From: a virus
Lineage: Duplodnaviria > Heunggongvirae > Uroviricota > Caudoviricetes
Length of the DNA stretch: 64,000 bases
Direction: 5' to 3' (one strand)
Virus record (IMG/VR): IMGVR_UViG_2627853872_000003
Within the stretch, counting starts at the first letter, position 1. Each line of letters begins with the position of its first letter. Below the pieces are notes generated by a model. The model saw nothing but the letters and a program-made list of their open reading frames with translations, made no database searches and was not told where the DNA came from. Positions 20,625 through 63,585 of the stretch are shown here, piece by piece. Both the position numbers and the translations under genes were made by a program.

Positions 20625-20664
20625 GCTCCCGGTGTCAGGTCCCCTCGGATTTGACACCGGGAGC
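20625..20664 (+). terminator. Intrinsic terminator-like hairpin (13-bp perfect stem)
   Basis: gctcccggtgtca ... tgacaccgggagc with a 14-nt loop, 9 bp after the stop of 18610-20616. Confidence 0.6.
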
Positions 20665-49296: not shown

Positions 49297-49389
49297 CTGG
49301 TGCCCGGGGCAATGGGGACACAGACCTATGACATGAACAAGGCCGGAGACGGGGGCGCTTCCTGCACCCGCCTCCGGCCTTCCGGTAGC

Positions 49390-49956
49390 TCAGTCGAACA
49401 GGTTTCTCATGTCCCCGATCACTTCGGAGTCGAAGGGATTGGCACCCGCCTTGGCATATTTCTCAGCAGCTGCAGCCCTTTCAGAGTCTGCCTTCGCAGT
49501 GTACCGGCGCGCCGCTTCTGCGTTGGTGCGCTCTTCCTCCTGCAGCGCGGCTTCGCTGGCGGTCGTGGGGATTTCGAACTCGACGTGGGCATCGACCCGT
49601 TCTCCGAAAAATCCCTCGGCCAACGCGGACAGTCGCGGGTCGTCCGGTTCAGCGTCGGTGAGATAGGCGATAACCGTGGAGAACACCATCGGTGTCTGAT
49701 TCACGCCGCTCTCGTCGGGCTCAATCTCCTGCATGATGCGGATGCGGCCATGCGTGATCGTTGGGCGAATACCGATTCCAAGACGGTCCAGCTCATCGCG
49801 TACGTCAGCTGCGAGCTCATCAGTTTGTTTGGCGAGGTCGTACTCGTGAGCGCGCAGGATGTCGAACAGCGCAGCTGTGAAGTACACCGCCAACGTCGGG
49901 GCTCCCGTATCGGCATTGATCGGCCGGAGGTAGGTAGTGCTATCGAGGGCAGTCAT
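49390..49956 (-). CDS. Hypothetical acidic protein
   Basis: 188 aa with protein-like composition. Confidence 0.5.
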   Translation of the reverse strand: MTALDSTTYLRPINADTGAPTLAVYFTAALFDILRAHEYDLAKQTDELAADVRDELDRLGIGIRPTITHGRIRIMQEIEPDESGVNQTPMVFSTVIAYLTDAEPDDPRLSALAEGFFGERVDAHVEFEIPTTASEAALQEEERTNAEAARRYTAKADSERAAAAEKYAKAGANPFDSEVIGDMRNLFD

Positions 49957-50046
49957 GATTCAAAGTGCCTTTCATTGGCAGTGATATTCATGCGAGATGC
50001 TAGGTCTAATGCGTGGTGCATGCGGAGCGCAACACCTATGAAGACA

Positions 50047-50080
50047 GAAGACCCGCACCCAGTTGCGAGTGCGGGTCTTC
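50047..50080 (-). terminator. Intrinsic terminator-like hairpin (12-bp perfect stem)
   Basis: gaagacccgcac ... gtgcgggtcttc with a 10-nt loop, 28 bp after the stop of 50108-50758. Confidence 0.55.
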
Positions 50081-50107
50081 ATATGCCGTCACACAGCGGT
50101 TCGCCGA

Positions 50108-50758
50108 TTAGGCGGCGGACGTCGTCCACCACTGGAATTGGCTGATGGCGGCTTCACGAAGGAAGCCGATCACCTGCTCGACGCTGTATCCAACGGCGGC
50201 GTATCCCGAGTTCTGATCGTCCAGCGCTCGCAGAACCTTCGCGTCGTTGTCATTGTTGGTAGGGACCTTGATCGCGACACCGGTAACCGCCTGTTCGCCG
50301 CGATGGAAGCAGGTCACCAGTTCATTGCGGATGTTCTTCTGCATGATCGTGATGTTCTTGGCCTCCGTGAACTGACCGGTGGCCGGATCAAGCACGATGT
50401 AGTCGACGGTCGGAGCCATGACCTGCTCCTTCTCGTACTTGCTGGTGCGCTGAGCGATGCCCAGAAGCCGGAAAAGGATCGGCTTGTTGAAGTGCTCTTC
50501 CGGAATTCCGCCTCCGCCACTGTTCGGGATAACGCCGATGTTGGGTGCGACAGAACTGACGCCCGCGTAACCCGCCGGCAGACCGACAGGAGCGGCGGTC
50601 GGCACGGCTGCAGCTGCCACAGGCGCCGCAGCGACGGGGGCAGCGGCAGGAACAGCGGCCGGTGCTGGAGCTGCGGCCACCGGGGCGGCTGCCACTGGAG
50701 CGGGGGCTGCTGGAGCGGCTGCCACAGGAACAGCGGCAGGAGCGATAGGAGCGGTCAT
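50108..50758 (-). CDS. Protein with Ala/Pro-rich N-terminus and conserved-looking C-terminal domain
   Basis: Start MTAPIAPAAV (ATG 50758, RBS AAGAGG). C-terminal domain is K/N/I-rich (IPEEHFNKPILFRLLGIAQRTSKYEKEQV...), unlike the local GC-driven composition. Confidence 0.55.
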   Translation of the reverse strand: MTAPIAPAAVPVAAAPAAPAPVAAAPVAAAPAPAAVPAAAPVAAAPVAAAAVPTAAPVGLPAGYAGVSSVAPNIGVIPNSGGGGIPEEHFNKPILFRLLGIAQRTSKYEKEQVMAPTVDYIVLDPATGQFTEAKNITIMQKNIRNELVTCFHRGEQAVTGVAIKVPTNNDNDAKVLRALDDQNSGYAAVGYSVEQVIGFLREAAISQFQWWTTSAA

Positions 50759-51160
50759 GGTAGTGCCTCTTTTCTGGTGCTGTTGAGTTGCTGTTGCTGA
50801 TCTATGCCGGTGTGGATGCATCGTCGACGGGCTTCCCTACCTGTCGAAGATGCATGCATCCGTGCCGACTGCCTAACTATTTACACCCCATGACCGACAA
50901 GCAACTGAGACGGCAAATGCCGGTTTTCTCGGCGTGTCGCGGCTTCAGTAGTGCCCCTTACACCGCGCGAAGACCGCTGTGATGTGGGGGCGTTGACGTA
51001 ACGCACGCGGTGGTCATCGGCCTGGCTGTGCGCCGTTTCAGGATCAGACAAAGTCAGCTCGTACAACTGGTGAAGCCTCTGCAGCCGTTGCGGTTTGGTC
51101 GCAGGTGACAGGTGCGCCGTCTATGCGCATCGGCGACCGTAGCCTTGCTCGGCGCGGCAC

Positions 51161-51814
51161 CTACACCAGGAATCGGTATACGTGCCCTGGACGGCCGGTT
51201 GGTGCTGGCTTACGCAGCTCCTCGGTTCGGCGGTATAGCAGTGAGCGGTCCAGGCGCTTGCGGGCTGCACCCGCGGTTGTCGGGCCGCAGACACTGAGCA
51301 GCGCGCGAACTTGGGCGAGAGTGGTCTCGTCGCCGAGCATGGCGCGTGTGGTGTCCGGGTCGACCAGCAGGCGCTCCCCCAGGCGCAAGATGGCCGACCT
51401 TGCGATCGCCGTGTGGCCGAATGGCATTGCCTCCGGTATCTGGGTCACTGGCACTGCGCCCCTGACCTCGGCGGGGACACGGGCCACCACGACGATCGAT
51501 ACGGTGTGTCCCCGTTCGTCGCGACCCGGGTCGCTGACGACGTCGACGACAGCGATGCCGCCGGTCAACTCGGTACCGGCCTTGTCCCGCACGATGCGCT
51601 GCGCGCACTGCTCGACGGTCTCCCCCTCCCAGGCGGCCAGCAGCCCACCAGGCAAAGTGATTTCGCCTTTGTGCGGTGCACCGGCGCGCTCGATCAGCAC
51701 GATCTTCGGCTCAGGGTCATCGGTGAGTGCAACGACATCCACGCTGAGCCAGGTGCCGTGCACCGGATGATCGTCGGGTGGCACGGCCAGGTTCGATTCG
51801 GTCATCGATCTCAT
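51161..51814 (-). CDS. NrtR-like protein: degenerate Nudix domain + C-terminal winged-helix-like domain
   Basis: Nudix-fold region LPGGLLAAWEGETVEQCAQRIVRDKAGTE has a degenerate REx2EE box. C-terminal TLAQVRALLSVCGPTTAGAARKRLDRSLL...GRPGHVYRF looks like a wHTH. The architecture matches NrtR-family ADP-ribose-responsive regulators. Confidence 0.6.
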   Translation of the reverse strand: MRSMTESNLAVPPDDHPVHGTWLSVDVVALTDDPEPKIVLIERAGAPHKGEITLPGGLLAAWEGETVEQCAQRIVRDKAGTELTGGIAVVDVVSDPGRDERGHTVSIVVVARVPAEVRGAVPVTQIPEAMPFGHTAIARSAILRLGERLLVDPDTTRAMLGDETTLAQVRALLSVCGPTTAGAARKRLDRSLLYRRTEELRKPAPTGRPGHVYRFLV

Positions 51815-53334
51815 GACCGCTGCCTCCTCGAGTGGCTGTAACGCTGATAGACACCGGTCTCACGGGCCAACGTTTCGCGCACTTCGGTGAAGCTGTATTG
51901 CCGCAACAGCTTTCCATCCTCGAACACCAGCTTCAGTTCGTTGTCGGCTTCCTGATCGGCATCGGCGTGTTCGATCAGGTACGGCTCGCCGCTCATCGCG
52001 CGTCGCACCGCCAATCGTCCGGTAGCCGACTTCTTGGATCCGTCATCGGTGACCGGGTCTTTGAGGATGCCGTGGCCGACACCGTCGATCTGAACCCATG
52101 TCGCCTTGACGGCCAGCTTGAAAACGTCGCGTGTTTGGTATTGGTAGGTGTAGGAACCGAAGCCGAAAACCACAGTGGTGGAGGCATAGCCCTGCACCAT
52201 CAGGTTCCGCGTGATCGCGTCAGCGCGCTCAAAGGTGATCGAATCCCCATAGATCGCGCCGATGTGAGGCTCCAGCTCGCGGTACCCCTTTGCGTTGGTC
52301 ACGGTGCCGAACGTCTCGGCTAGCAGGTTCACCACGCCCTTGCGAGCCGGACTGCCTTCGGGCGCCGCTGGATCTCCGCACAGGATCAGCTCAGGGTCAC
52401 CGCTGTCGGGCCGGATCACGAGCTTTCCGTCGCGAGCCATGATCTGTTCCTTGCGCGCGGGCAGATACTCGGTGAGCACCCGCCACAGATCCCAGGTGTC
52501 GGAGACGACCGACAGGATTCCTTCGGGATACAGGCTCAGCAGCCGATCGAAGGTCACCAGCTCGCCGTCTTGTCCGCCGGCACACATCACCGAGTGCTCG
52601 GTCGCCGGAACTGATGCGCCGATCAAGGCGTCGCCGTTGCCGGGATAGAACCGTTCGATGAACCGGATCGCGGGCAATCCGTCGGTGCCCGTGAAGCTGA
52701 CCAGGTGGCCCGCACCTGATGCGGCCGCCGCTGCGTCTCCAGCCATGCCCCGGTAGGAGAAGTCATGACCCTGGAACTGCACCGCGGTTTCATCGCCAGA
52801 CTCGGCAGCGCGTTCGTCGAGCAGCTTGCGGTTGTTCCAGGCGATGGTGGCACTGGTGATCGGCTGCCACAGCTCAGCCGACAACTGCGTCTCGAAGTAG
52901 TTGGTCAGCCAGAAGAACCGGGAATCGGTGTTCTCCACAGTTAGATACGGAACCCGCAAAGGTACTAGCGATCCTTCCCGCACCGCCCGCACACGCAGTG
53001 GCAGGTAGCCCAACGTGTGTAGGTCGCGGAAGTGCTGAACGCCAACCGTGTTCGGCCCCAACAGCGCGGTCACAAACCGCTCGTATCCGGCCAGCACCGG
53101 TTCGAGTTCGTCGGCGGTCAGGTCGAAGAACACCTGCCAGTCTTCGATCAGCCGCTGCAGATATGCCTGCAGACCGAAGAACACCGTGGCATCGATGCCC
53201 GGCACCCGGGTACCCCGCGCGGTGAGGTTGGAGTAGACGAACTCGGTTCCGTCCGGGTACTGGCGCCGGTGGTCGAGCTTGTAGGCGTCGGTGGCCAGCA
53301 GCGTGTCCAGCGCACGGTTCTGCTTGTCGTTCAT
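51811..53334 (-). CDS. Nicotinamide phosphoribosyltransferase (NAMPT/NadV)-family protein, candidate nicotinamide-ADPR transferase
   Basis: DTLLATDAYKLDHRRQYP and VFFGLQAYL motifs of the NAMPT family. Alternative start 53375. RBS AGGGGGAA before ATG 53334. Confidence 0.8.
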   Translation of the reverse strand: MNDKQNRALDTLLATDAYKLDHRRQYPDGTEFVYSNLTARGTRVPGIDATVFFGLQAYLQRLIEDWQVFFDLTADELEPVLAGYERFVTALLGPNTVGVQHFRDLHTLGYLPLRVRAVREGSLVPLRVPYLTVENTDSRFFWLTNYFETQLSAELWQPITSATIAWNNRKLLDERAAESGDETAVQFQGHDFSYRGMAGDAAAAASGAGHLVSFTGTDGLPAIRFIERFYPGNGDALIGASVPATEHSVMCAGGQDGELVTFDRLLSLYPEGILSVVSDTWDLWRVLTEYLPARKEQIMARDGKLVIRPDSGDPELILCGDPAAPEGSPARKGVVNLLAETFGTVTNAKGYRELEPHIGAIYGDSITFERADAITRNLMVQGYASTTVVFGFGSYTYQYQTRDVFKLAVKATWVQIDGVGHGILKDPVTDDGSKKSATGRLAVRRAMSGEPYLIEHADADQEADNELKLVFEDGKLLRQYSFTEVRETLARETGVYQRYSHSRRQRS

Positions 53335-53381
53335 CGGTTCCCCCTGTGTGTTGGTGTTGTCGGCAGTCCTGGCCTGCGTGT

Positions 53382-53792
53382 TCATCGTTGGTCCTCTGCT
53401 ATCCATTGACGGGCGATCTCGCAGAGCGCGATCCACACGGCGTCCTTCACACGCTCTTCCCAGCCCAGTTCGTTGAACGGGACCATGTCCGGATGTGTCT
53501 TCGCAGCTACATCGCGCACGGGGCCGTATGTCCACCCCAGCTGCTCGTACGCATGCCACCAACTGTCGTGCGCCTGTTCAGGCGTCGCATACCGGTCGGG
53601 GCCCATCATCTTCTCGGTGATTTCCAGGAACTGCGCCCGGAAATGCTCCTCGCGCGCCGACCAGGGCTCCGGTACGACGGGCGCGTTCACTGCGGCTGCC
53701 TGTAGCCGCGCGGCCTCGTAGATGAAGATGGCTTGTCGCTCAAGCAGAGTGCCTTTGGTCGGCCATTCGATGGCAGAAAAATTCTGAGTCAT
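53382..53792 (-). CDS. RyR (ryanodine-receptor Ry) domain protein
   Basis: [46 protein letters not shown] matches the bacterial/phage RyR-domain consensus (H..W....GW.YG....D...K.HP.lVP...L). Confidence 0.6.
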
Positions 53793-54676
53793 TTCGGTTC
53801 CTCGCTGATGTTGTGCAGGACGTCGATCACGTAGCGGCCAAGTGGGTGGATCTGTACTGCCGCGCCCTCGGGTGATGTCACGGCGGCCGCTACTGCCGAG
53901 CGCAGCGAGTCGGTGGTGTGGATGCTCCGGTAGTTGTCAGTCAAGACATCGGTGCCCTTGGTGAACCCGCCGTGGGTGATCCACAGATCAAGCTCGAAGC
54001 CGGCACCCAGTCCCTGAGCCAGCAGCGCGAACGTTCCACCGCCGTCGCAGATGTCATCGACCACCAAGTACCGGCCCGGTCGATCCTTCACCTCAGCGGG
54101 GGCGTTGTAGCCCAGAAGTTGTCCGGTGGCGGGATCGCGCTTCTTGTCGGCCACCGACACCGGCAGCTCTAGCTGCGCGGCGACTGTGCTCGCGCGCCGC
54201 AGCGAGCCGGCATCCGGACCGATCACCCCGAGGTAGTCGCCAGCGTCAACCGCCGCAGCCGCAACCTCGGCCAGGGAGATCATGTGAACGGAAACAGTGG
54301 GGTTGACGGCCCGCAGCGTGTCCAGCCACACCGGCGAGTGCGGGTCGATGGTGACTATCCCGGTGATTCCTGACAGCGCGGCCAGACGCGCGTTGGTGTG
54401 CGCGGGGCAGGGCGTGTCTTTGTCGCCGCGGGCGCTGGGCAGAAACGGCATCACCAAGATTCGGTGCGGGTACGCCGCTGTCAGAGCTGCCCAGTTGAAC
54501 ACGACGGTCCAGTCCGGCGCGGCTGTGTGCACCCAGAGCACCTGCACACCCGGGACGAGATCTGCCCCATCGACGGAGCGCACCGTCAGATCACCCATCG
54601 GGTAGGCGAATATCTCTATCGCAGCTGCTGTGAGCTGCCCCCCGTCATAGGCGAAGAACTCGTAGTCGTTCGTCAT
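53789..54676 (-). CDS. Ribose-phosphate pyrophosphokinase (Prs)-like protein, candidate ADP-ribose pyrophosphokinase
   Basis: PRTase type-I fold motifs [21 protein letters not shown] and the PRPP-binding loop [16 protein letters not shown]. Confidence 0.75.
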
Positions 54677-54684
54677 AGCAGAGA

Positions 54685-54727
54685 CCCTACACCACTTTCG
54701 TACATTTTGTACGTAAGTGGTGTAGGG
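54685..54727. promoter_or_regulatory. 43-bp nested palindrome (candidate NrtR operator / intra-operon attenuator)
   Basis: Outer arms ccctacaccact / agtggtgtaggg (12 bp perfect). Inner cgtaca-ttt-tgtacg. Located 8 bp upstream of the Prs-like start and 9 bp after the macro gene stop, overlapping the RBS region. Confidence 0.6.
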
Positions 54728-54736
54728 CTCAGGTGT

Positions 54737-55192
54737 TCAGCCGAACAGAACCAGCGTCACAGCGACCGGCGAAGCCTCTGCGACCTCACGAATGATCTGC
54801 TCGGCCACGGCAGGATCCAGACCGCCGATACCGCCGCCGATAAGTGGTAGCGCGACAGAACCGATCCCCTGCTTATGCGCCAGGTCTAGCCCCTGAGTCA
54901 GAGATGCGCGCAGCCACTGCTCGGTCGCATCGGGACCTGGCTGATCCTGACTCGCACAGTGGATGATGGGGCGACCCAGCCCGGCGTCACGGCTCGTGTT
55001 ACGAGTGAACACGGCCGACCCGGGCGTGATCCGCCCCTGCTGCGCAAGGATGCCGTACTGAGTCATCGCGTCGGGATAGCGGTCCGCCATCACCGAGGCC
55101 AGGCCCCCGGTGACGCCCTGGCAATTCACTCCGTGCGCCAATGCCTCAGCTGGATGGGCGAACAAGTCGCCGGTCTCGACGGTGAAGCTCAT
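54737..55192 (-). CDS. Macro domain (ADP-ribose binding/processing) protein
   Basis: GDLFAHPAEALAHGVNCQGVTGGLA, GSAVFT, ALPLIGGGIGGLDP are typical MacroD/YmdB-type motifs. Confidence 0.75.
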   Translation of the reverse strand: MSFTVETGDLFAHPAEALAHGVNCQGVTGGLASVMADRYPDAMTQYGILAQQGRITPGSAVFTRNTSRDAGLGRPIIHCASQDQPGPDATEQWLRASLTQGLDLAHKQGIGSVALPLIGGGIGGLDPAVAEQIIREVAEASPVAVTLVLFG

Positions 55193-56262
55193 CGATGCCT
55201 CCTCAGACTCGATCCGAATGGGGGACGTGACAGATTGTCTTGTATGTCCCCCAGCTGCCAGGGTTCAATGGCACGGGCCCGGCTCAGTTTTGCGAGCTTG
55301 CCGAGCAGTAGGTCCGACATCTTGTCGCCCTGAGCTTCGGCGTCACAGTCACCTTGGACGTCTACGAGAGCCGGATACCTTGCGTCGATGTGGAAGCCGA
55401 CCATTGGGGTTGGATACAGATCCGATGGCAACTTGCGCAGCATTTTTCCGTACGGTCGGCCAGCCGTTATGTGAGCGGCCTCGTCAGTCCCAATCAGCGC
55501 ACGTGAGTGCTCCGGTCTGTTGACTCTCAGTGAGAACTTGAATCCCAGTTGAGCATCCAGACCTTCAAGCGTCGACTCGGAGAAGTGTTCCCCGGCCAGA
55601 ACCACGTGCACTCCGGTCAAGCCTCCGTCCAGTGCGATGCCCATGAGCCGGTATCGCTTCTCTGGACTCTCCTGCAGGACCCAGCAGAAATCGTCGATGA
55701 CCGCTACCAGATCTGGTAGTGGCGGCCAGTCGCCTTCGACAGAGTGTGCACAGCGTCTGCGGCGGTACTCAGCGCTACTTCGGCATCGATGTAGTGCGAG
55801 CAGTTTTGTGCGCCGTTGAATCTCCTCGGCGATCGCGGAGATCACCATGTCAAAGGATTCTTCGGAGGAGTTGTCGGCCCACACGTTAGCGACCGTGTGG
55901 GGCAACTTTTCGAAACCTCGGAACATAGCGGGCCCCATGCCGTCAGCCAAGAACAGCGAAAGCCGATCCGGCCCATACCTGGTCGCGAGCGACAAGACCA
56001 TCGATCGCAGGAAGTAACTTCTTCCTGCCCCGGTGCGCCCCTGCACGGCACCGTTGGTTCCGTCACGTGAAAAGTCCAGGGTGCTCAGCTCTGGGATAAG
56101 CGCATCGCCCACACGCAGATGGCCTATCGGTATCGCGACCGAGTCAGCGTTAGCGTTCCGCGCCCATGCCGCCTCGGGGTCGTAGGTTTCGATGTCGCTG
56201 ATACCGAGCACGTCGAAGAAGCCCGGAACCCTGCCCTCATTTTCTGTATCGATGGTGCTCAT
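55189..56262 (-). CDS. FtsK/SpoIIIE-like single-domain ATPase
   Basis: Walker A GRTGAGRSYFLRSMVLSL, Walker B VAVIDDF. Stop overlaps the macro gene start (ATGA), indicating translational coupling. Confidence 0.7.
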   Translation of the reverse strand: MSTIDTENEGRVPGFFDVLGISDIETYDPEAAWARNANADSVAIPIGHLRVGDALIPELSTLDFSRDGTNGAVQGRTGAGRSYFLRSMVLSLATRYGPDRLSLFLADGMGPAMFRGFEKLPHTVANVWADNSSEESFDMVISAIAEEIQRRTKLLALHRCRSSAEYRRRRCAHSVEGDWPPLPDLVAVIDDFCWVLQESPEKRYRLMGIALDGGLTGVHVVLAGEHFSESTLEGLDAQLGFKFSLRVNRPEHSRALIGTDEAAHITAGRPYGKMLRKLPSDLYPTPMVGFHIDARYPALVDVQGDCDAEAQGDKMSDLLLGKLAKLSRARAIEPWQLGDIQDNLSRPPFGSSLRRHR

Positions 56263-57050
56263 GTGGCATCGTGATCCTCATCGTCCTCCTCATCCATTCC
56301 GAGGGAGACGGCTACGGGGACTTCCGGGTCGTCAACGTCCAGATCCGGGTGATACGTGTGCGCAGACAGCACCGCTCGAAACACTCCAGCACACGTGAGG
56401 GTGACAATCGATGCTGGGTGCTCTCGCGTGTACAGCTCGACGGGTTCCTTGAATACCGCGGCGATAGCGCTCATCTTCTTGATCACGTCCGAGCCGAACG
56501 CCTGGACCTTGCCGACCTTCAGCGGTGCCGTCGTCTGGTCGTCACCAAGACCGCGCGTGCTCAGAATTTCCTTGGCGCCGCGGGCCGACAGTCGAGAGAT
56601 CGTCGATGCGATCGGGAAGTCGTCGACGTCTTGCAACGGGATGTAGTGCCGCGAGTCCGCTTCTCCAGGGGCTCCGTCGGTGAGTGTGCGCATGAGCAGC
56701 GTGGAGCCGTTATCGACGACCGACAACTCGACATCACACTGAGATTCCTTGTCGATCTTCTTGACGGCCGACGCCGCGTTCTTGGCTGCCGACAGCAACT
56801 GGGAAGCCTGATCGGTCGAGAACTTCACCAGAGGCAGCGTTCCGTCACATCCGAAGATCGCTTGGCCCGGACTGTTTCCGTCCGAGGCGATGAACGCCAA
56901 GCTGTTCTGCGTCCCAACTTCGCCGGTCTCGACGCGCGTGGAGCCCAGTACGACAGCGGCATGCGTGGGGTCATCGTTGCCTGCATACGCCATGACCTTG
57001 GCTGCTGAGAGTCCTTGCACGAATAGTTGGTTGTCGATAACAACGGTCAT
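56259..57050 (-). CDS. Hypothetical protein with acidic C-terminal tail
   Basis: 263 aa ending DEEDDEDHDAT. 4-nt overlap with the downstream FtsK-like gene. Two repeated about 120-aa halves are possible (clamp-like?), which is unsupported. Confidence 0.45.
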   Translation of the reverse strand: MTVVIDNQLFVQGLSAAKVMAYAGNDDPTHAAVVLGSTRVETGEVGTQNSLAFIASDGNSPGQAIFGCDGTLPLVKFSTDQASQLLSAAKNAASAVKKIDKESQCDVELSVVDNGSTLLMRTLTDGAPGEADSRHYIPLQDVDDFPIASTISRLSARGAKEILSTRGLGDDQTTAPLKVGKVQAFGSDVIKKMSAIAAVFKEPVELYTREHPASIVTLTCAGVFRAVLSAHTYHPDLDVDDPEVPVAVSLGMDEEDDEDHDAT

Positions 57051-57199
57051 GTCCCGTCGTCCCTTCCATTGATTGAAACGGCGCCTGGTCGTTCACGCGT
57101 TGTGTCCGCGCTAGATGAAGCGAGCCGCAATCTAGGGCTGATCGACCGACGATCCAGACAGCGGCGCGTTGCCGGAAATGCCTGAGAGCACACCCACGA

Positions 57200-57487
57200 T
57201 CACGCATCGCTCAAATCGCCCCTATCAATTGCCCCGCTGACCGGTTTCATCAGCAGATCCGATCCAATGCGGATCCGGGTCGTGGAGTTGTCGCCAACGC
57301 GCGTGCGTACGCGCAAGACTGCCGTTGCCCCGGATTCGCTCAATGTCACGCTCAGAGGTGCGTTCAGTGCGTCGATCAGCACCTCGCTCACACGACCCGT
57401 CAGAATTCCGCTCAAATCTGCAGTCAATGTTGTGATACGGGTTAAACCGCCACGGCGGAACAGCTTTTCGCGATCCTGCACGATCAA
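57200..57487 (-). CDS. Hypothetical small protein
   Basis: 95-aa ORF. Confidence 0.4.
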   Translation of the reverse strand: MIVQDREKLFRRGGLTRITTLTADLSGILTGRVSEVLIDALNAPLSVTLSESGATAVLRVRTRVGDNSTTRIRIGSDLLMKPVSGAIDRGDLSDA

Positions 57488-57668
57488 CGCTCAGATGTCC
57501 GCCCAGTCTTTACATCGCTCAGCTGCGTGCTCAATGCGACGATACGAAACCTCCGGCTGCGGCCCGGCGCACGAAGACCGTGAAACAGGGACGTGACATA
57601 CATAGCGCCGCGGCCGCTGTCGTGTCGCGTGCGATCTGTTTCCAGGTTCCGCCGCACACTGCGCCACC

Positions 57669-58445
57669 ATGAGCTCGCTGAAATCTCCACCTGAAAACGA
57701 CAAGCTGCTGAGTCAGCTCCTACAGACGCTATTCGCGCTGGCTGCCGTGGCGGTCATTGTGGTGCTGATCGTGAACGGCACCTTGTTCGGCAAGGACAAC
57801 CGGATACCGTCGGAGCTCAGCAAAATCACCGGTCAGGAACAACGCGATGAAGGAGCGCCACCGAGCGAATCGACAATAAGCGGTACCGGAACTCCCAGTC
57901 CTGATCCATCCACACTGACCGTCGCTGCGCCCGGATCCAAAAATGGATACGCCCGAGCACGATTCGGACAACCGTGGACAGATGACGTCGACATCGAAGG
58001 TGGGCACAACGGCTGCAGTACCCGAGACGATATTTTGCAGCGCGACCTCACTGGCATAACCCTTTCCGGCTCATGCAAAGTCATGTCCGGAACACTTGCC
58101 GACCCGTACACCGGACAGGTCATTTCGTTCGTCTACGGCAAGAAGACATCCGCACTCGTACAGATCGATCATCTGGTGAGTTTGGCGAACGTTTGGGTCT
58201 CCGGCGCAGCGACCTGGGACTTGCCCGAACTCAAGAAGATCGCGAATGATCCACTGAATCTGCTTGCCGTCAACGGATCTTCAAACGAGAGCAAGGGCGA
58301 GAAATCAGCCGATCAGTGGCTGCCGGAAAACACAGCTTTCGACTGCTCGTACGTCAAGCGCCAAGTGATGGTGAAGAACAAGTACCGGCTGACGGTGACA
58401 GCTGCCGAGAAAGCCACTATGCAGCAGTTTTACGGCGCCTGCTGA
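57669..58445 (+). CDS. Membrane-anchored DUF1524/HNH-like (GmrSD C-terminal type) nuclease
   Basis: N-terminal TM helix LFALAAVAVIVVLIV. Motifs IDHLVSLANVW...NLLAVNGSSNESKGEKSADQWLP resemble the His-Me finger DUF1524 family. Confidence 0.55.
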   Translation: MSSLKSPPENDKLLSQLLQTLFALAAVAVIVVLIVNGTLFGKDNRIPSELSKITGQEQRDEGAPPSESTISGTGTPSPDPSTLTVAAPGSKNGYARARFGQPWTDDVDIEGGHNGCSTRDDILQRDLTGITLSGSCKVMSGTLADPYTGQVISFVYGKKTSALVQIDHLVSLANVWVSGAATWDLPELKKIANDPLNLLAVNGSSNESKGEKSADQWLPENTAFDCSYVKRQVMVKNKYRLTVTAAEKATMQQFYGAC

Positions 58446-58501
58446 ACGGCTCGACGTGCCGTACCCTTCGGCCTCGTTGACCGGGATCTACGGTGCCCGC
58501 C

Positions 58502-59236
58502 ATGACAAACACACTTACGCGTTTAGCCGCTGTCGGGTTCAGCGCCGCCGTCGCGCTCCTGGCCGTCGGATGCCAACAGCAGCGGCCCAGCGAGAACACG
58601 GCGGCCAGCGCTTATGTTTCCGCGACGGCAGGAGCCGAAACCCACCTTGATGTGAACCAATTGATGAATGCTGCGATAGCAACAGCCCGGGCGATGCGGT
58701 CCGCACACCTGATGTTCTCCAGTACTGGAGTTACAGATCTGCTGGCGAAGGCCTACGCCGCTGACGTGACCCTCACCCCGATCGTTGCAGCGCGGGGAAA
58801 CGCCACGCTGAAGATCAACGGAGACTACAGCCAGACGCAGTTCCAGACTGTAGAGGCGGATTTGTGGATCCAGGACGCCAACGGCACATTCGTCGATGCC
58901 GGGCCGGCGCAGGGCACTCTGAACCCTGCGGCCCTCTTGGACCCACAACACGGAGTCGCCAGTGTGCTCGCCGCCGTGGCATCTCCTGTAATTGTTGATC
59001 CCAAGGCACACGCCGGTCCGGACGAGGCTGTGAAAGTCGCTGGGACTTTGTCCGCCGCGGCAGCCAGCGTGCTGGTGCCGCGGTCCTCGCTGGGAGACGC
59101 GACGGATTTTTCGGTGGCCGTGTGGCTGGCTCCAGTCGACCCGCATCCCCTTCTCCAGATAATCGTCACCGTCGGTGAAGGATCACTGACCCTCAGAGCC
59201 GATAGGGCCGAGCCTTTCGCCGTTTCGGTCCCGTAG
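58502..59236 (+). CDS. Lipoprotein (LppX/LprAFG-like)
   Basis: MTNTLTRLAAVGFSAAVALLAVGC lipobox. Size (about 244 aa) and composition fit the family. Confidence 0.5.
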   Translation: MTNTLTRLAAVGFSAAVALLAVGCQQQRPSENTAASAYVSATAGAETHLDVNQLMNAAIATARAMRSAHLMFSSTGVTDLLAKAYAADVTLTPIVAARGNATLKINGDYSQTQFQTVEADLWIQDANGTFVDAGPAQGTLNPAALLDPQHGVASVLAAVASPVIVDPKAHAGPDEAVKVAGTLSAAAASVLVPRSSLGDATDFSVAVWLAPVDPHPLLQIIVTVGEGSLTLRADRAEPFAVSVP

Positions 59237-59307: not shown

Positions 59308-62300
59308 CTATGCAGACTGCCGAAGCGCCTGCTGCTCTTGCTGCGATCGCCGGGCCACCGCGTCGACGTCGATTCGTGCGGTCTGCACCATCACGTAGTC
59401 GTCGGCGTCGACGATGATCCGCCCCTGTCCGGCACGCCAGCGCATCGGCTTGAGGTGGTACGCCTGACCGATCGGATCGCCGGACGACGGCGGGCTGGCC
59501 AGCTGCAGGATGGGCGCCATCATGTTCTCGCGCAACGCCACCAGGAACTCAGATGACTTCACCCTGCCCGCGAACCCGCTGCTGCTGTCCGAGACGATGA
59601 AGTGCACGCCGAGGTCCGTTCCGGTAGCGAGCAGTTCACTGACGCTCACGCCGCCGTATCGCACCTCATCGAACACCGACTTGGCCGAGTGCCCCTTGGA
59701 CATGTTGGCGAAGTTGTCGACAAACACGTACACCTCGGGTCCGGTGAAGAACGTCCGCGAGCTCAGTTGCTCGGCGGTCGCATCATCGGTGGGACGGCGC
59801 GACCCCATCAGCTTGACCAACATCTCCGCTGTGTCAGCGATGTCCTCGGCGCTGGTGACATATCCCGGTGGACGTATCCGCTCGCGAACCATCGCTCCGT
59901 CGCGCTCCACTTCCCGGAACTTGGCAGGCTTGACGAATCCTCGCGCGTACAGACGATCTCGTTCTCCTAGGTGCTGCCGCAACGGATCGATCACAATGAT
60001 GATCGCGTCCTTCGGGGTGAATTGACGCATCACCGACTCCATGACGCTGCGCAGCAAGTTGGTCTTGCCGGCGCCCTTCTCGCTGTAGACCAACAAGTTC
60101 TGCGAGAAGTTCGGAACCGGAGCCAAGGACAAGGTGTCCATCCGCACGCCCAGCGGGATGATCGTGTTCACAGGGTGGCGGTCCTTGTCGCTGAGCGGGG
60201 CGAAGGCAGACCACACCTGCTCGTAGTCGATCACCGGGTCTGCCGGCAGCACCCTGACCACGCGCTGCTCGGCCAGTTCAGCTGATAGATGCAGGCACAG
60301 GTTCCGAATCTCTTCACCATGATCGTGGATCTTGAAATCCTTCATACCCTTGACATAACCGTCCTCTTCGATCTCCCGGAAGATCGGAACAGCGGTGCGG
60401 CACTGCAGCAGTGTCAGCGGGTCCAAAGACCGACCAGGCTGATCCACCGGAATGCGCTCGCTCAGGGTGAAGCGCACTTCGGAAGAAACCTTGGCCCCGG
60501 CGTAGTCCGTCGACGGCAGCTGAACACCGCCGTTGACCTCCGCGGTGTAGTGAGTCACGTTGCCCGCGTTACCCGACCCTCCCGAGTCCGCGGTGTACAC
60601 CAGGTGCACACCCACAGCTGCACCCTTATCGAGGATCGGGCGCAGCAGCTGCGCACGCACAGCGCGGTCATCCTTCTCACCGAGGAATCCACCAATGCCG
60701 TCAATGGCCACAATCACGTACCCATACGGGTCATCTGCCACAGGGGTATTGGCCTTGGACGCCAAATATGCGTCAACCGAGGATGCTTGGCGGTCGACCA
60801 TCTCGCGGCGTCGCACTTCGATCAAGCGTGAAGCCTCACCGAGAATGCGCGCGGTGGTCTCGTCGTCTTCCGGTCGTGCGTACGCCGCGACATTGGGGCT
60901 GTCTTTGACCTCTCCGAGCTTGCCGGTGCCGTAGTCGGCGAGCATGAATGCCAAACGCTCCGGGCCGTGTTGAATGCAGCCGCACACGACCAGTGTCTGA
61001 AGCAGCGTGGTACGCCCCGACTTGCCTGCACCGGCGATCACCTGGTGCGGGATGTTCCCGCCGAAGTCCATGAACCACGGCAGTCGCGTGTGCTTTTCGG
61101 GGGCATCAAGGTCGCCCACGCGGATTTTCAACCCCTTCACCTCTCGGGTCAGATTGAGCGTCGGCAGCGACAAAGGCTCGCGCAGCGACGGCTTCCACAG
61201 GTCCAAGGTGCGCATATCGGACAGTCGCGAGGCCTTCTCCAGGAGCACGTCGGCCATCTTCTCGCCGAATTGTTCCTCGGTGACCTCCACCGTGTCTTCT
61301 CCGACCTCCGGAGTGAATCCCCGGGTAGTGAACAGCGTGAACGGAACTACAGGCTCTGCAACTACACCTGAGCCGTCCGCCCGGGAGCGGGCACGCTCTG
61401 TCACGGTTCGTCGGATGTAGGGGGCCTCGTGGTGGAACGCCGCCACTTCGACAGGAGCTGCGTCAGTGGTGAACTTGCGCAGGATCTTTCCCTTGAGGCC
61501 ACCTTTCTTGCCCACCATCGTCGCTGCGTCGTCGGTGCCGAGCATCGCGATGGAATAGCTCGCGCTGTTAACCGACAGCGAGTAGCGGAAACTCAAGTGC
61601 TCAAAGAGGTCACCGATCACGTCCTTGTTGATGAACTGGCTGCACATCACCAGGTGCATACCCAGCGAGCGACCAACGCGACCGACGCGGATCAACAGAT
61701 CCAAGTAGCCGGGACGTTCCTTGAGAAACTCACCGAACTCGTCGATGATGACGATCAAGTCCGGAAGCGGAGGCCAGCTTGGATCGTTCGGGTGCTTCTT
61801 CTGCTGCTCCCGGTAGTCGAAGATGTCCTTGCAACCCTTTTCGGTGGTGATGAACTCCTCGCGGCGATTCACTTCGCCGTTGATCACCGCACCGAGCCGG
61901 TCGACCAGCTCCATCGTGTTCTCAAGGTTGGAGATAGATGCCACGACATGCGGCAGCCCGTCCATTCCCAGGAACGTTGCGCCGCCCTTGAAGTCGGCCA
62001 GGATCAGTGCGACTTTGTCCGGGCCGTACATGGCGATGAGCGCCAGCACTATCGCGCGCAGGAAGTACGACTTACCCGATCCGGTACGTCCGGCCACCGC
62101 GCCGTGTGGGCCGTTGCCGTCGCGGTTCTCCTCGTAGAAGTTCAGGTAGGTCAGCTCTGAGGTGAGTTCGTCGCCCTTGCGGTAGTAGCCGAACGGAACC
62201 TTGATTTCATCGGTATAGGCGTTGCGCTTCCACACTTCGATCAAGTCGTGGGTCTCGATATCGCCGATCTCGAGTACTTCGAAGAAGTCCGGAATGTGGT

Positions 62301-63585
62301 CGGGGCGATCGTCGACGACGGCTCCGTCGACGCCGTAGTTGCGTGGGCGCCACTTGTACATGGCCCGTGCGAATACCTCGGCTTGCGCGATCGTTACCGA
62401 GTCCGCGGCGGCCGCGTCGTAGTCGTCGACTGTTGAAACACGGCCGTCCTTGAGCAGAATGCGGCTCTTCATCTTTACGGGATCGGTGACCAGGTCTTGG
62501 CCGTAGCGCACCACGAACCAGGTCATGCCGTTGACTCCGCCGGAGATGTTCGCCGGCCATGACACCATCGCGTCGGGCAGATCGATGATCAGTAGCAGAT
62601 GTGGTGGGCGATCGTCGCTGTCCTCGTTGCGCATCCGCTCGATCTGCGCCGCGTGCATCGCTGCGAATTCGTCGAGGCTGCGCCATGTGAGCAGCCGTGC
62701 GCCCAACCCCTTTTCAACCCGCGTCACATCTTCGGTATGTGGCAGCCACTTCACCCATTCCCACGTCTTGGGGTCGTTGGTCACCACGCCGATGTTCAGA
62801 TCACTGGGCCGATGGTTGAATGCCAGCGACATAAGCATGGCCCGTACAAGCCCTAGCCTGCCTTCCTCGTCACCGCGCATCGCATACGCAGGAAACTCGT
62901 TGAGCCGCACATCGATCGGAAGGTTTGCCACTACAGACAACGTGTTGATGGCGCGGTCGTAGCGCACCATTGTCGCCGGTTCCTGCATCTCGGGGACGAC
63001 GTCGTCCGCCTGGATCAGCTTGGGATACAAGGGCGCCACACCGATCCCGACACGGGCACGCAGGTATGGGTTGGACGTCAGATTCTTGACATCCGGGTCC
63101 GATTCATCGGCTGGCGCAACTACCCGGCCGATGTCGAGATTACGGTCGGCCTGCCACATCTCGTGAGTGCCGACCAGCGACAGAAGGTCAGCCGGATGCG
63201 GGAAGCACATGGTACGTAGGTCGTGCATAGCGCGGCCCTGGTCGTAGATCTCGAAACGCCTCTCGCGCAGCTCGAGATCGTATTCCTCTATCTCTTGGTC
63301 GATGTCGCCCCCGCTGCTGCCCTGGTTGCGCATCTGCATGGCGTACATCAGCGGCATCATGAGCATGAGCGGCATGCTGGAGAGCATGGTGACGATGGCG
63401 CGCTGACCGGTGACCAGTGACATCACCACCATGCCGATCATCGCGGCGACCATGATCAAAGGCATTGCGCGAAGCCAAATGGGCCGCTTGTCCGGAGCGG
63501 GCAAGCCGAGCGGTTCCTTGATCTGCACACCGGTGGGCAACAGCTGAACTGACTCTCGCGGCGGAGCCCGGAAAACGGTAAACAT
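59308..63585 (-). CDS. EccC/EssC-like type VII secretion FtsK/SpoIIIE triple-ATPase
   Basis: 1425 aa. Two N-terminal TM helices. ATPase domain 1 GRTGSGKSYFLRAIVLAL / IIDEFGEF, domain 2 AGAGKSGRTTLLQTL, domain 3 SEKGAGKTNLLRSVMESV. Domains 2 and 3 are degenerate, as in EccC. Confidence 0.85.
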   Translation of the reverse strand: MFTVFRAPPRESVQLLPTGVQIKEPLGLPAPDKRPIWLRAMPLIMVAAMIGMVVMSLVTGQRAIVTMLSSMPLMLMMPLMYAMQMRNQGSSGGDIDQEIEEYDLELRERRFEIYDQGRAMHDLRTMCFPHPADLLSLVGTHEMWQADRNLDIGRVVAPADESDPDVKNLTSNPYLRARVGIGVAPLYPKLIQADDVVPEMQEPATMVRYDRAINTLSVVANLPIDVRLNEFPAYAMRGDEEGRLGLVRAMLMSLAFNHRPSDLNIGVVTNDPKTWEWVKWLPHTEDVTRVEKGLGARLLTWRSLDEFAAMHAAQIERMRNEDSDDRPPHLLLIIDLPDAMVSWPANISGGVNGMTWFVVRYGQDLVTDPVKMKSRILLKDGRVSTVDDYDAAAADSVTIAQAEVFARAMYKWRPRNYGVDGAVVDDRPDHIPDFFEVLEIGDIETHDLIEVWKRNAYTDEIKVPFGYYRKGDELTSELTYLNFYEENRDGNGPHGAVAGRTGSGKSYFLRAIVLALIAMYGPDKVALILADFKGGATFLGMDGLPHVVASISNLENTMELVDRLGAVINGEVNRREEFITTEKGCKDIFDYREQQKKHPNDPSWPPLPDLIVIIDEFGEFLKERPGYLDLLIRVGRVGRSLGMHLVMCSQFINKDVIGDLFEHLSFRYSLSVNSASYSIAMLGTDDAATMVGKKGGLKGKILRKFTTDAAPVEVAAFHHEAPYIRRTVTERARSRADGSGVVAEPVVPFTLFTTRGFTPEVGEDTVEVTEEQFGEKMADVLLEKASRLSDMRTLDLWKPSLREPLSLPTLNLTREVKGLKIRVGDLDAPEKHTRLPWFMDFGGNIPHQVIAGAGKSGRTTLLQTLVVCGCIQHGPERLAFMLADYGTGKLGEVKDSPNVAAYARPEDDETTARILGEASRLIEVRRREMVDRQASSVDAYLASKANTPVADDPYGYVIVAIDGIGGFLGEKDDRAVRAQLLRPILDKGAAVGVHLVYTADSGGSGNAGNVTHYTAEVNGGVQLPSTDYAGAKVSSEVRFTLSERIPVDQPGRSLDPLTLLQCRTAVPIFREIEEDGYVKGMKDFKIHDHGEEIRNLCLHLSAELAEQRVVRVLPADPVIDYEQVWSAFAPLSDKDRHPVNTIIPLGVRMDTLSLAPVPNFSQNLLVYSEKGAGKTNLLRSVMESVMRQFTPKDAIIIVIDPLRQHLGERDRLYARGFVKPAKFREVERDGAMVRERIRPPGYVTSAEDIADTAEMLVKLMGSRRPTDDATAEQLSSRTFFTGPEVYVFVDNFANMSKGHSAKSVFDEVRYGGVSVSELLATGTDLGVHFIVSDSSSGFAGRVKSSEFLVALRENMMAPILQLASPPSSGDPIGQAYHLKPMRWRAGQGRIIVDADDYVMVQTARIDVDAVARRSQQEQQALRQSA

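What the first reader, a model, noticed from the sequence alone, without database searches (positions are those of the whole stretch)
54685..54727. 43-bp nested perfect palindrome inside the NAD operon, overlapping the Prs-like RBS
Outer arms ccctacaccact/agtggtgtaggg and inner arms cgtaca-ttt-tgtacg form a two-tier palindrome in the 60-bp gap between the macro stop and the Prs-like start. No U-tract follows, so a simple terminator is unlikely. The size and dyad symmetry fit an NrtR-type operator (the NrtR-like gene is at the operon end) or an RNA hairpin that occludes the RBS. Either would make NAD rebuilding inducible, for example by ADP-ribose released by defence NADases.
Basis: inference. 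Interest (0 to 1): 0.6.

Follow-up and report, generated by a model that had tools for sequence, protein, structure and literature searches.

The report
NrtR-type operator and promoter before prs
The 43-bp palindrome is real and is most likely the binding site of an ADP-ribose-sensing NrtR-type repressor, laid over the promoter of a mobile NAD-salvage operon in a Mycobacteroides abscessus plasmid-like element; this is a known kind of switch in a new host and setting, not a ribosome-binding-site hairpin.

Summary
The palindrome at 54685-54727 is confirmed: 20-nt arms, 19 of 20 complementary, 3-nt centre, in the 60-nt gap between the macro and prs genes on the minus strand. The window comes from a Mycobacteroides abscessus element that carries type VII secretion genes. 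prs-(RyR)-nadV-nudix is a mobile cassette found in at least seven genomic contexts. In every context a core palindrome (CGTACAAAATGTACG) is followed about 12 nt later by TAnGGT, then 7 nt, then the ATG. That pattern is a mycobacterial -10 box for a leaderless mRNA, so there is no ribosome binding site to occlude. The 217-aa Nudix product is an NrtR-family protein: its catalytic box is degenerate, it has a C-terminal winged helix, and it matches S. oneidensis NrtR over its full length. Similar 20-27-bp palindromes at the same position precede prs-nadV-nudix cassettes across Actinobacteria, but not phage prs-nadV genes, which lack the regulator. The outer 12-bp arms are specific to the macro-adjacent lineage. 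Their downstream arm is the promoter spacer plus the -10 box, and their upstream arm mirrors it, with one compensatory change. The stem starts 9 nt after the macro stop, like the two other best hairpins of the window, so it may also end or insulate the macro operon. Verdict: a new member of the known NrtR-controlled prs-nadV-nrtR kind; moderate interest.

The parts
54685..54727 (.). 43-bp palindrome: 20-nt arms, 19 of 20 complementary, 3-nt centre
54693..54719 (.). Inner 27 bp, candidate NrtR-family operator (sense strand CACTTACGTACAAAATGTACGAAAGTG)
   Evidence: It is a perfect 27-bp palindrome in L170 and is retained in L176. Palindromes of 20-27 bp sit at the same position in other actinobacterial cassettes. 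S. oneidensis NrtR was crystallised on a 27-mer (title of the 3gz6 entry).
54699..54713 (.). 15-bp core CGTACAAAATGTACG, present upstream of prs in every context
   Evidence: It occurs once in the window. L175 has CTCACATTTTGTGAG, with changes on both sides of the dyad.
54716..54727 (-). Upstream outer arm on the sense strand (CCCTACACCACT), specific to macro-adjacent lineages. It mirrors the promoter spacer and -10 box and starts 9 nt after the macro stop.
   Evidence: CCCTA/TAGGG in the window becomes CCATA/TATGG in L179 and L091.
54684..54689 (-). Predicted -10 hexamer TAGGGT (TAnGGT in all 13 variants); 5 of its 6 bases lie inside the downstream arm
   Evidence: TANNNT 7-12 bp upstream of transcription start sites is the mycobacterial -10 motif (PMC3898074).
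54708..54713 (-). Weak -35-like hexamer CGTACA, 18 nt upstream of the -10 box and inside the operator core
   Evidence: Direct reading of the sequence; inference only.
54674..54676 (-). prs ATG; the transcription start of a leaderless mRNA is predicted at A54676
   Evidence: The 7-nt stretch between the -10 box and the ATG varies in sequence, keeps its length and has no Shine-Dalgarno sequence.
53789..54676 (-). prs-like ribose-phosphate diphosphokinase paralogue (295 aa), first gene of the cassette
53382..53792 (-). RyR-domain protein (136 aa), present in five of the six macro-adjacent cassette variants (absent in L179)
51811..53385 (-). nadV / nicotinamide phosphoribosyltransferase (524 aa as called)
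51161..51814 (-). NrtR-family regulator (217 aa): Nudix fold with a degenerate catalytic box, plus a C-terminal winged helix
54737..55192 (-). Macro-domain gene, last gene of the upstream co-directional operon; the palindrome is the only hairpin between it and prs

Best explanation
The palindrome is a composite control region of a mobile NAD-salvage cassette, prs-(RyR)-nadV-nrtR. (1) The central 23-27 bp, with the core CGTACAAAATGTACG, is the operator of the NrtR-family repressor encoded by the last gene of the cassette. (2) The operator lies over the -35 region and spacer of the cassette's own promoter. The -10 box (TAGGGT, 54684-54689) forms the outer end of the downstream arm, and transcription starts at the A of the prs ATG, giving a leaderless mRNA. 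A bound repressor dimer would therefore exclude RNA polymerase. By analogy with characterised NrtR proteins, ADP-ribose (the product of NAD cleavage) would release the repressor and switch on PRPP synthesis and nicotinamide salvage. (3) In the macro-adjacent plasmid lineages the upstream arm has been extended to mirror the spacer and the -10 box. Transcripts reading through from the macro operon would then fold into a 20-bp stem that begins 9 nt after the macro stop. I infer that this stem ends or insulates the upstream operon, leaving the cassette under NrtR control alone. What is shown: the anatomy, the conservation, the family of the regulator, and the promoter signature. What is inferred: binding, the ADP-ribose response, the transcription start, and the role of the outer arms. 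My confidence is about 0.75 for (1) and (2), and about 0.35 for (3); the figure given for the whole statement is 0.6.
For: Regulator. The family profile matches S. oneidensis NrtR over residues 4-217 at E = 1e-14, and also matches AraR and 2fml. The AlphaFold model has pLDDT 87.9 and a C-terminal helix-helix-strand-helix-helix-strand-strand domain. The top Foldseek hits are all full-length NrtR-family regulators: 5bs6, 3gz6, 3gz5, 2fml. The Nudix box REUXEE reads RIVRDK.

Operator. The core sits upstream of prs in plasmid, prophage and chromosomal contexts whose upstream neighbours differ: macro, divergent WXG100, RNR, GmrSD_N, Lsr2. Nine pairs of the dyad show changes on both sides, and 0 of 500 shuffles reach this. 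A cassette with 60% identical Prs has CTCACATTTTGTGAG at the same place. The core occurs once in the window.

Wider pattern. Palindromes scoring at least 8 lie within 70 nt of the start in 31 of 63 nudix-linked cassettes and in 0 of 70 phage prs-nadV loci. The phage loci, with one exception (L026), also show no nudix gene downstream. The Curtobacterium version carries the published GT-N7-AC core (PMC2330246).

Promoter. TAnGGT followed by 7 nt (6 in L175) and ATG is found in 13 of 13 variants. TANNNT lies 6-8 nt before the start in 60 of 63 nudix-linked cassettes, 3 of 70 phage loci and 1 of 780 internal control codons. This is the mycobacterial -10 motif (PMC3898074).

Known precedent. Operator-prs-nadV-nrtR operons and ADP-ribose as anti-repressor are described in PMC2330246 and PMC6800001.

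Outer arms. Four of five distinct macro-adjacent lineages have 19-20-bp stems of -33 to -40 kcal/mol; other contexts give -12 to -27. CCCTA/TAGGG becomes CCATA/TATGG. The window's two other best hairpins start 8 nt after stop codons and lack U tracts. Contexts with a longer gap (L170, L172) carry a separate hairpin upstream of the operator.
Against: No binding, transcription-start or expression data exist for this element. The published GT-N7-AC core of most NrtR sites is not present here: the equivalent positions read TA-N7-TA, and GT/AC are spaced by 9. The mycobacterial chromosomal NrtR motif GTTTTCGA-N7-TCGAAAAC is also absent. In two contexts with divergent upstream genes (L088, L174) only the 13-15-bp core and the downstream half remain. 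Either the operator is shorter than 27 bp, or conservation of the downstream half reflects the promoter rather than the repressor. One macro-adjacent lineage (L176) has a degraded upstream arm (-21.5 kcal/mol). The excess of sense-strand G-U over A-C mismatches (11 against 4) is not significant, so nothing separates an RNA stem from DNA dyad symmetry. Mycobacterial RNA polymerase is reported to need a U tract for intrinsic termination (my recollection of Czyz et al. 2014, not checked here).
Confidence: 0.6

Rival explanations
1. The outer arms have no function of their own. A short operator palindrome repeatedly seeds template switching during replication (quasi-palindrome correction). This copies the constrained downstream flank, the spacer and -10 box, onto the unconstrained upstream flank. 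That would lengthen the palindrome and keep it perfect without selection. The operator and promoter reading of the centre still holds.
For: The downstream side is constant in all contexts, while the upstream arm mirrors it to very different extents: 0 extra bp in L174, 6 in L170, 14 in the window. The same graded series occurs independently in Leucobacter (23, 25, 31 and 49 bp in L097, L104, L096, L119) and in Paeniglutamicibacter (40 bp in L120). L120 has no ORF of at least 70 aa with raised third-position GC ending within about 800 bp upstream, so insulation from an upstream gene is not an obvious need there. Apparent compensatory changes follow the -10 variant, as copying from the downstream arm would give.
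Against: The upstream arm differs at only 1-2 of 20 positions between macro-adjacent lineages whose adjoining 9-12-nt spacer is unrecognisable and whose macro proteins are 67-82% identical. The stem has the same position after a stop codon as the window's two other strong hairpins.
Confidence: 0.2
2. The palindrome is only an RNA stem-loop that terminates or stabilises the macro operon transcript, and is not a protein-binding operator.
For: It is a very stable hairpin that starts 9 nt after the macro stop. This matches the geometry of the hairpins at 20625-20664 and 49339-49381.
Against: The core and its downstream flank are conserved upstream of prs where the upstream gene is divergent or far away and no long stem can form (L088, L174, L175). 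The element follows prs, not macro. It is AT-rich at the centre (46% GC against 62% for the window by my count of the 43 bases; window GC), unlike the other two hairpins. No U tract follows.
Confidence: 0.07
3. One reading: an mRNA hairpin that hides the prs ribosome binding site and makes translation inducible.
For: The downstream arm ends 8 nt before the ATG and contains GGTG and AGGG. The hairpin is very stable.
Against: There is no conserved Shine-Dalgarno sequence. What is conserved is TAnGGT at a fixed 7 nt from the ATG, with a variable pyrimidine-rich spacer. That is the leaderless-promoter signature. An mRNA starting at the ATG would not contain the hairpin. The long stem is missing in most cassette contexts. 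No Rfam family matches.
Confidence: 0.05
4. The core palindrome is the site of a regulator other than the cassette's Nudix protein, for example a host factor or a plasmid or phage repressor.
For: The canonical GT-N7-AC core is absent. The left half-site is lost in L088 and L174. No binding data exist.
Against: The site moves with the three-gene cassette between plasmid, prophage and chromosome. The only DNA-binding protein that always moves with it is the NrtR-family product. Phage prs-nadV clusters that show no nudix gene downstream (all but one, L026) also lack the palindrome and the promoter. Operator sequences differ by genus, as expected for private regulator-operator pairs.
Confidence: 0.08

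Closest known systems
NrtR-controlled prs-nadV(-nrtR) operons of gamma-proteobacteria (Shewanella oneidensis SO1979, Acinetobacter sp. ADP1; Rodionov et al. 2008, PMC2330246)
   Same: The gene set is the same: a prs paralogue, nadV and a Nudix plus winged-helix regulator. The Acinetobacter order is the same (operator, prs, nadV, nrtR). A palindromic operator of about 21-27 bp lies directly upstream of prs. The regulator matches SoNrtR over its full length by profile and by fold.
   Different: The host is an actinobacterium. The cassette sits on mobile elements (a plasmid-like element with type VII secretion genes, prophages). The operator sequence lacks the GT-N7-AC core. The promoter appears leaderless. 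The palindrome is extended to 43 bp and takes in the -10 box. S. oneidensis has two sites; here there is one.
Mycobacterial chromosomal NrtR (MSMEG_3198) and its nadA/B/C operator GTTTTCGA-N7-TCGAAAAC (Gao et al. 2019, PMC6800001)
   Same: The regulator family is the same. The operator is a 23-bp palindrome with TT..CG / CG..AA half-sites. ADP-ribose antagonises binding. The host group is related.
   Different: The target is different (de novo synthesis against salvage). The half-site register differs (CG-N11-CG here against CG-N9-CG). That motif has no match in the window with up to 3 mismatches. The cassette regulator is therefore probably a private one.
Phage NAD reconstitution pathway NARP2 and phage prs-nadV clusters
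   Same: nadV (NAMPT), often next to a prs paralogue, serves to rebuild NAD. The RyR gene of the plasmid cassette is 74-77% identical to RyR genes at the same position in three phage contigs.
   Different: The phage clusters examined show no NrtR-type gene downstream (one exception, L026), no palindrome and no leaderless promoter (3 of 70 and 0 of 70). This cassette has no NMN adenylyltransferase.
Stem-loops without a U tract after mycobacterial stop codons ('I-shaped terminators')
   Same: A long stem begins 8-9 nt after a stop codon with no U tract, like the hairpins at 20625-20664 and 49339-49381.
   Different: The centre is AT-rich and conserved as sequence. It also occurs where no upstream gene reads into it, and it overlaps a promoter.

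Membership tests
NrtR-family regulator with its operator | N-terminal Nudix-fold effector domain, usually with a degenerate catalytic signature | tested here: met
   Pfam NUDIX E = 2.5e-9. The box REUXEE reads R73-I-V-R-D-K78.
NrtR-family regulator with its operator | [quoted passage not shown] | tested here: met
   The AlphaFold model (pLDDT 87.9) has this domain at residues 131-215. Foldseek top hits are 5bs6, 3gz6, 3gz5 and 2fml over 209-241 alignment columns. The profile matches 3gz5 over residues 4-217 at E = 1e-14. The NCBIfam NtrR model scores far below its cut-off (25.5 against 400 bits), so this is a distant member.
NrtR-family regulator with its operator | Regulator gene linked to NAD-metabolism genes (prs-nadV in the known cases) | tested here: met
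   prs-(RyR)-nadV-nudix have overlapping stops and starts in all contexts.
NrtR-family regulator with its operator | Palindromic operator of about 21 bp in the promoter region of the target operon | tested here: met
   The 15-bp core and 27-bp inner palindrome end 3 nt before the -10 box. They are conserved across contexts, with changes on both sides of the dyad.
NrtR-family regulator with its operator | Conserved operator core GT-N7-AC (stated for most, not all, groups in PMC2330246) | tested here: not met
   Here the equivalent positions read TA-CAAAATG-TA, and GT/AC are 9 apart. The Curtobacterium cassettes do carry GT-CACACTG-AC.
NrtR-family regulator with its operator | Specific DNA binding that is relieved by ADP-ribose | not testable with these tools
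   This needs a gel-shift or anisotropy assay with purified protein. Conservation of the ADP-ribose-contacting residues was not examined.
Mycobacterial chromosomal NrtR regulon | Operator GTTTTCGA-N7-TCGAAAAC | tested here: not met
   No match in the window with up to 3 mismatches.
Mycobacterial leaderless promoter | TANNNT -10 motif 7-12 bp upstream of a transcription start that coincides with the start codon, and no Shine-Dalgarno sequence | tested here: inconclusive
   The sequence signature is fully met: TAGGGT, 7 nt, ATG in 13 of 13 variants; 60 of 63 against 1 of 780. The transcription start itself cannot be mapped here.
Canonical intrinsic terminator | GC-rich stem-loop followed by a U tract | tested here: not met
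   The terminator scan does not report it. The tail is UCUCUGCUAU and the stem is 46% GC.
RBS-sequestering mRNA hairpin or known cis-regulatory RNA | A Shine-Dalgarno sequence inside the stem of the gene's own mRNA, or a match to a described RNA family | tested here: not met
   There is no conserved Shine-Dalgarno sequence. The predicted mRNA starts at the ATG. Rfam gives only a sub-threshold microRNA hit (18.9 against 100 bits).

The most novel reading that the evidence does not exclude
One palindrome works at two levels. As DNA it is the operator of an ADP-ribose-sensing NrtR repressor placed on a leaderless promoter. As RNA it is a 20-bp stem that closes the upstream macro operon, so no read-through reaches the cassette. 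The conjugative element or prophage would then carry a self-contained NAD-rebuilding module. The module stays silent until NAD is being cleaved, by defence NADases, toxins or de-ADP-ribosylation by the neighbouring macro protein, and then switches on. The repeated independent lengthening of such operators over their -10 boxes (Mycobacteroides, Leucobacter, Paeniglutamicibacter) would be a selected design and not a replication by-product.
Probability: 0.22. Interest if true: 0.55.

Novelty: new member of a known kind. Interest (0 to 1): 0.35.

Why it matters
NAD depletion is a common anti-phage and toxin strategy, and phages are known to carry NAD-rebuilding genes. This locus suggests that plasmids and prophages of Mycobacteroides abscessus, a clinically difficult pathogen, carry a salvage module (PRPP synthetase plus nicotinamide phosphoribosyltransferase). 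It comes with its own ADP-ribose-type sensor and a private operator, so it would be expressed only on demand. The comparison made here gives a sharp, testable map: operator, -10 box, and a leaderless start at 54676. It also shows that the same layout is general for prs-nadV-nrtR cassettes in Actinobacteria and absent from the phage versions. The switch itself has been a known kind since 2008. The new points are the host, the mobility, the leaderless promoter, and the unexplained extension of the palindrome over the -10 box.

Tried and rejected
1. Further copies. The outer arm with up to 2 mismatches and the core with up to 3 mismatches occur only at this site in the window. So the palindrome is not a dispersed repeat or a generic terminator family.

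2. Exact 43-mer in IMG/VR: no hit. The 19-mer GTACAAAATGTACGWAAGT in IMG/VR gave two chance matches inside AT-rich coding DNA. A pattern of core, -10 box and ATG in the JGI metagenomes returned only two contigs I already had.

3. Megablast of 50000-58000 found nothing useful in phages or plasmids. The element has no close relative in those collections.

4. Close relatives of Prs in IMG/VR are at most 39-42% identical and belong to a different, phage-type prs-nadV arrangement.

5. Bidirectional promoter. I considered whether the mirrored -10 box in the upstream arm drives transcription antisense to macro. I rejected this for the window, because the palindrome stops one base short of the essential last T. 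The mirrored hexamers read TAGGGC, TATGGG or TATGTG. In L119 the mirror is complete, so the idea stays open there.

6. Strand test. Sense G-U mismatches against A-C mismatches were 11 against 4, with non-independent sequences, so the result is inconclusive.

7. Known RNA families and tRNA or tmRNA genes: nothing.

8. Sigma-70 consensus scan: no site at the locus. This is expected, because mycobacterial promoters lack a conserved -35 region (PMC3898074).

9. Structure paper of SoNrtR (PMC2896262): not held. I could not compare base contacts.

Full report
**Observation**

The plus strand at 54685-54727 reads ccctacaccactttcgtacattttgtacgtaagtggtgtaggg.
- The outer 12-nt arms are exact reverse complements, and so are the inner 6-nt arms.
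- Between the two tiers there is one more T-A pair and one mismatch. The repeat finder therefore reports 20-nt arms, 95% complementary, 3 nt apart (I2).
- From base composition I estimate about 1e-4 such palindromes by chance in 64 kb.
- As sense-strand RNA the region folds at -40.8 kcal/mol, z = -7.5.
- All genes here are on the minus strand. The macro gene is 54737-55192 and the prs-like gene is 53789-54676, so the gap is 60 nt.

**What the surroundings are**

- The exact Prs protein is listed in 92 blocks of the assembly collection (24 contigs were read), mostly Mycobacteroides abscessus.
- The window carries EccB/EccC-type secretion genes, several FtsK-like ATPases, a DNA polymerase and helicases. 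It is therefore a plasmid-like mobile element, not a phage.
- Read in the direction of transcription, the locus is a 263-aa gene, an FtsK-like gene and macro, with overlapping stops and starts. Then comes the 60-nt gap, then prs, RyR, nadV and nudix, again overlapping.

**The cassette moves, and the centre of the palindrome moves with it**

Homologues of Prs at 60-95% identity were traced to their contigs. prs-nadV-nudix recurs with unrelated upstream neighbours:
- macro, in plasmid-like contexts;
- a divergent WXG100 pair next to a lysin, in prophages;
- ribonucleotide reductase, on the chromosome of M. salmoniphilum;
- a GmrSD_N gene;
- Lsr2, among others.

In every Mycobacteroides context the sequence upstream of prs contains GTACAAAATGTAC or a close variant. 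About 12 nt further comes TAnGGT, then 7 nt, then ATGACGAAC. A cassette with only 60% identical Prs has CTCACATTTTGTGAG at the same place, with both sides of two pairs changed. On the 13-sequence alignment, 9 of the 20 pairs show changes on both sides, and 0 of 500 shuffles reach this value. The core occurs once in the 64-kb window. The element therefore belongs to prs, not to macro, and its dyad symmetry is maintained.

**The regulator**

- The 217-aa product of 51161-51814 has a Nudix domain. Its catalytic box REUXEE reads RIVRDK.
- Homologues are conserved over the whole length.
- The AlphaFold model (pLDDT 87.9) has a C-terminal winged-helix-like domain.
- Its best matches among solved structures are all full-length NrtR-family regulators: B. 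thetaiotaomicron AraR, S. oneidensis NrtR with and without DNA, and E. faecalis 2fml.
- A profile of the family matches S. oneidensis NrtR over residues 4-217 at E = 1e-14.
- It is a distant but clear NrtR-family member.
- NrtR proteins are repressors released by ADP-ribose. The layout operator-prs-nadV-nrtR was described in 2008 (PMC2330246; PMC6800001).

**A promoter, not a ribosome binding site**

- TAnGGT at a fixed 7 nt (6 in one case) from the ATG is invariant, while the 7 nt in between vary freely and contain no Shine-Dalgarno sequence.
- TANNNT 7-12 bp upstream of the transcription start is the mycobacterial -10 motif, and leaderless mRNAs are common there (PMC3898074).
- I tested this on all loci fetched, counting TANNNT 6-8 nt before an in-frame start that is open to the Prs match:

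| Set | With TANNNT 6-8 nt before the start |
|---|---|
| Distinct cassettes with a nudix gene | 60 of 63 |
| Cassettes where tblastn found no nudix gene | 21 of 28 |
| Phage prs-nadV loci | 3 of 70 |
| Internal in-frame ATG/GTG codons (control) | 1 of 780 |

The prs mRNA of these cassettes is therefore very probably leaderless. In the window the -10 box is 54684-54689 and the predicted start is A54676. The operator covers the spacer and the -35 region. The cassette's own mRNA would not contain the palindrome, which removes the RBS-occlusion reading.

**The wider family**

Across Actinobacteria the same position holds genus-specific palindromes of 20-27 bp that end 2-6 nt before the -10 box:
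- GTACTTGTCACACTGACAAATAC in Curtobacterium, which contains the published GT-N7-AC core;
- CTATTCATCAAAATGATGAATAG in Leucobacter;
- ATAAACATCA..TGATGTTTAT in Glutamicibacter;
- CTATTCGTAAATCTACGAATAG in Pseudoclavibacter;
- TAGTTTTGGTT-N5-AACCAAAACTA in Nocardia;
- AGATACGGGCA-N4-TGCCCGTATCT in Mycolicibacterium.

Palindromes scoring at least 8 occur in 31 of 63 cassettes with a nudix gene, 13 of 28 without a detected one, and 0 of 70 phage loci. The phage loci, with one exception (L026), also show no nudix gene downstream. Regulator, operator and stand-alone promoter thus occur together. The Mycobacteroides operator itself lacks GT-N7-AC. It also does not match the chromosomal mycobacterial NrtR site GTTTTCGA-N7-TCGAAAAC, so it looks like a private regulator-operator pair.

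**The outer arms**

- Only the inner 23-27 bp has the size of such operators.
- The downstream outer arm (sense AGTGGTGTAGGG) is the promoter spacer plus five bases of the -10 box. It is conserved in all contexts.
- The upstream outer arm (sense CCCTACACCACT, 54716-54727) is the variable part. It is absent in L174, partly retained in L088, extends 6 bp beyond the core in L170, and is full length in the macro-adjacent lineages.
- Stems of 19-20 bp (-33 to -40 kcal/mol) occur in four of five distinct macro-adjacent lineages. The fifth, L176, is degraded.
- Where the -10 box reads TATGGT instead of TAGGGT, the upstream arm reads CCATA instead of CCCTA (L179, L091).
- The stem begins 9 nt after the macro stop.
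- The two other best hairpins of the window (20625-20664 and 49339-49381) begin 8 nt after stop codons and also lack U tracts.
- Cassettes with longer upstream gaps carry a separate hairpin before the operator (L170, L172).
- I therefore favour, weakly, a second role as the 3' stem of the macro operon that keeps read-through out of the cassette.

The main rival is neutral. Template switching at a quasi-palindrome would copy the constrained downstream flank onto the free upstream flank. This would also explain the same graded extension seen independently in Leucobacter (up to 49 bp in L119) and Paeniglutamicibacter (40 bp in L120). The count of G-U against A-C mismatches (11 against 4) does not decide between an RNA role and a DNA role.

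**Comparison and verdict**

The locus works like, and by most tests belongs to, the NrtR-controlled prs-nadV-nrtR operons known from Shewanella and Acinetobacter.
- It differs in host, mobility, operator sequence, the leaderless promoter, and the extension of the palindrome over the -10 box.
- The RBS-hairpin idea is not supported.
- The dismissal of a terminator role was premature.
- Binding, the ADP-ribose response and the transcription start are inferred, not shown.
- It is a new member of a known kind, of moderate interest.

Noticed in passing
window 53382-53792 (-); L018 6795-7199, L027 6840-7244, L034 6676-7071: The RyR-domain gene between prs and nadV is present in five of the six macro-adjacent cassette variants (absent in L179) and in none of the other contexts. 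It is 74-77% identical in protein to RyR genes at the same position in three IMG/VR phage contigs, whose prs is only 35-40% identical. This suggests recent exchange of this one gene between phage and plasmid NAD clusters.
   Followed up: partly
window 20625-20664 and 49339-49381: These are the two other near-perfect 18-nt-arm hairpins of the window. Each begins 8 nt after a stop codon (gene 18550-20616 on the plus strand; gene 49390-49956 on the minus strand) and lacks a U tract. They look like the element's usual 3'-end stem-loops.
   Followed up: partly
L119 about 4954-5002 (Leucobacter soli); L120 about 4958-4997 (Paeniglutamicibacter terrestris): The operator palindromes before prs are extended to 49 bp and 40 bp and run into the -10 box, as in the window. 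In L119 the mirror copy of the -10 box (TAGCCT) is complete, so a divergent promoter is conceivable there.
   Followed up: partly
L001-L080 (IMG/VR phage contigs) against L091-L179: Phage prs-nadV clusters almost never carry the NrtR-type gene, the palindrome or the leaderless promoter. Chromosomal and plasmid cassettes of Actinobacteria usually carry all three.
   Followed up: yes
window 54737-55192 (-): The best NCBIfam match of the macro protein is the macro domain of the antitoxin DarG (E = 1.5e-15, far below the family cut-off). No DarT-like gene was looked for. A de-ADP-ribosylating enzyme directly upstream of an ADP-ribose-sensing cassette may be more than coincidence.
   Followed up: no
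window 55189-56262 (-), 59308-63585 (-), 18550-20616 (+): There are three FtsK/SpoIIIE-type ATPases. The 1425-aa one is EccC-like and lies next to EccB. The 357-aa one matches only the EccCa domain. These are type VII secretion genes of a plasmid-like element.
   Followed up: no
window 57669-58445 (+) and 58493-59236 (+): A GmrSD_C-type restriction endonuclease gene and an LppX/LprAFG lipoprotein gene lie on the opposite strand between the secretion genes and the macro operon.
   Followed up: no
window 51811-53562 (-): The mechanical ORF list gives nadV 583 aa from a TTG at 53562. Gene callers start it at 53385 (524 aa), overlapping the RyR stop, and that start fits the coupled layout of the cassette.
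   Followed up: yes
L088-L090, L177-L178, about 3914-4012: In the prophage context the 98-bp region between the divergent WXG100 gene and prs keeps the outermost piece of the upstream arm (CATGCAC, pairing with GTGTATG), although the piece next to the core is replaced. This is unexplained. The operator might also serve the divergent WXG100 promoter.
   Followed up: no
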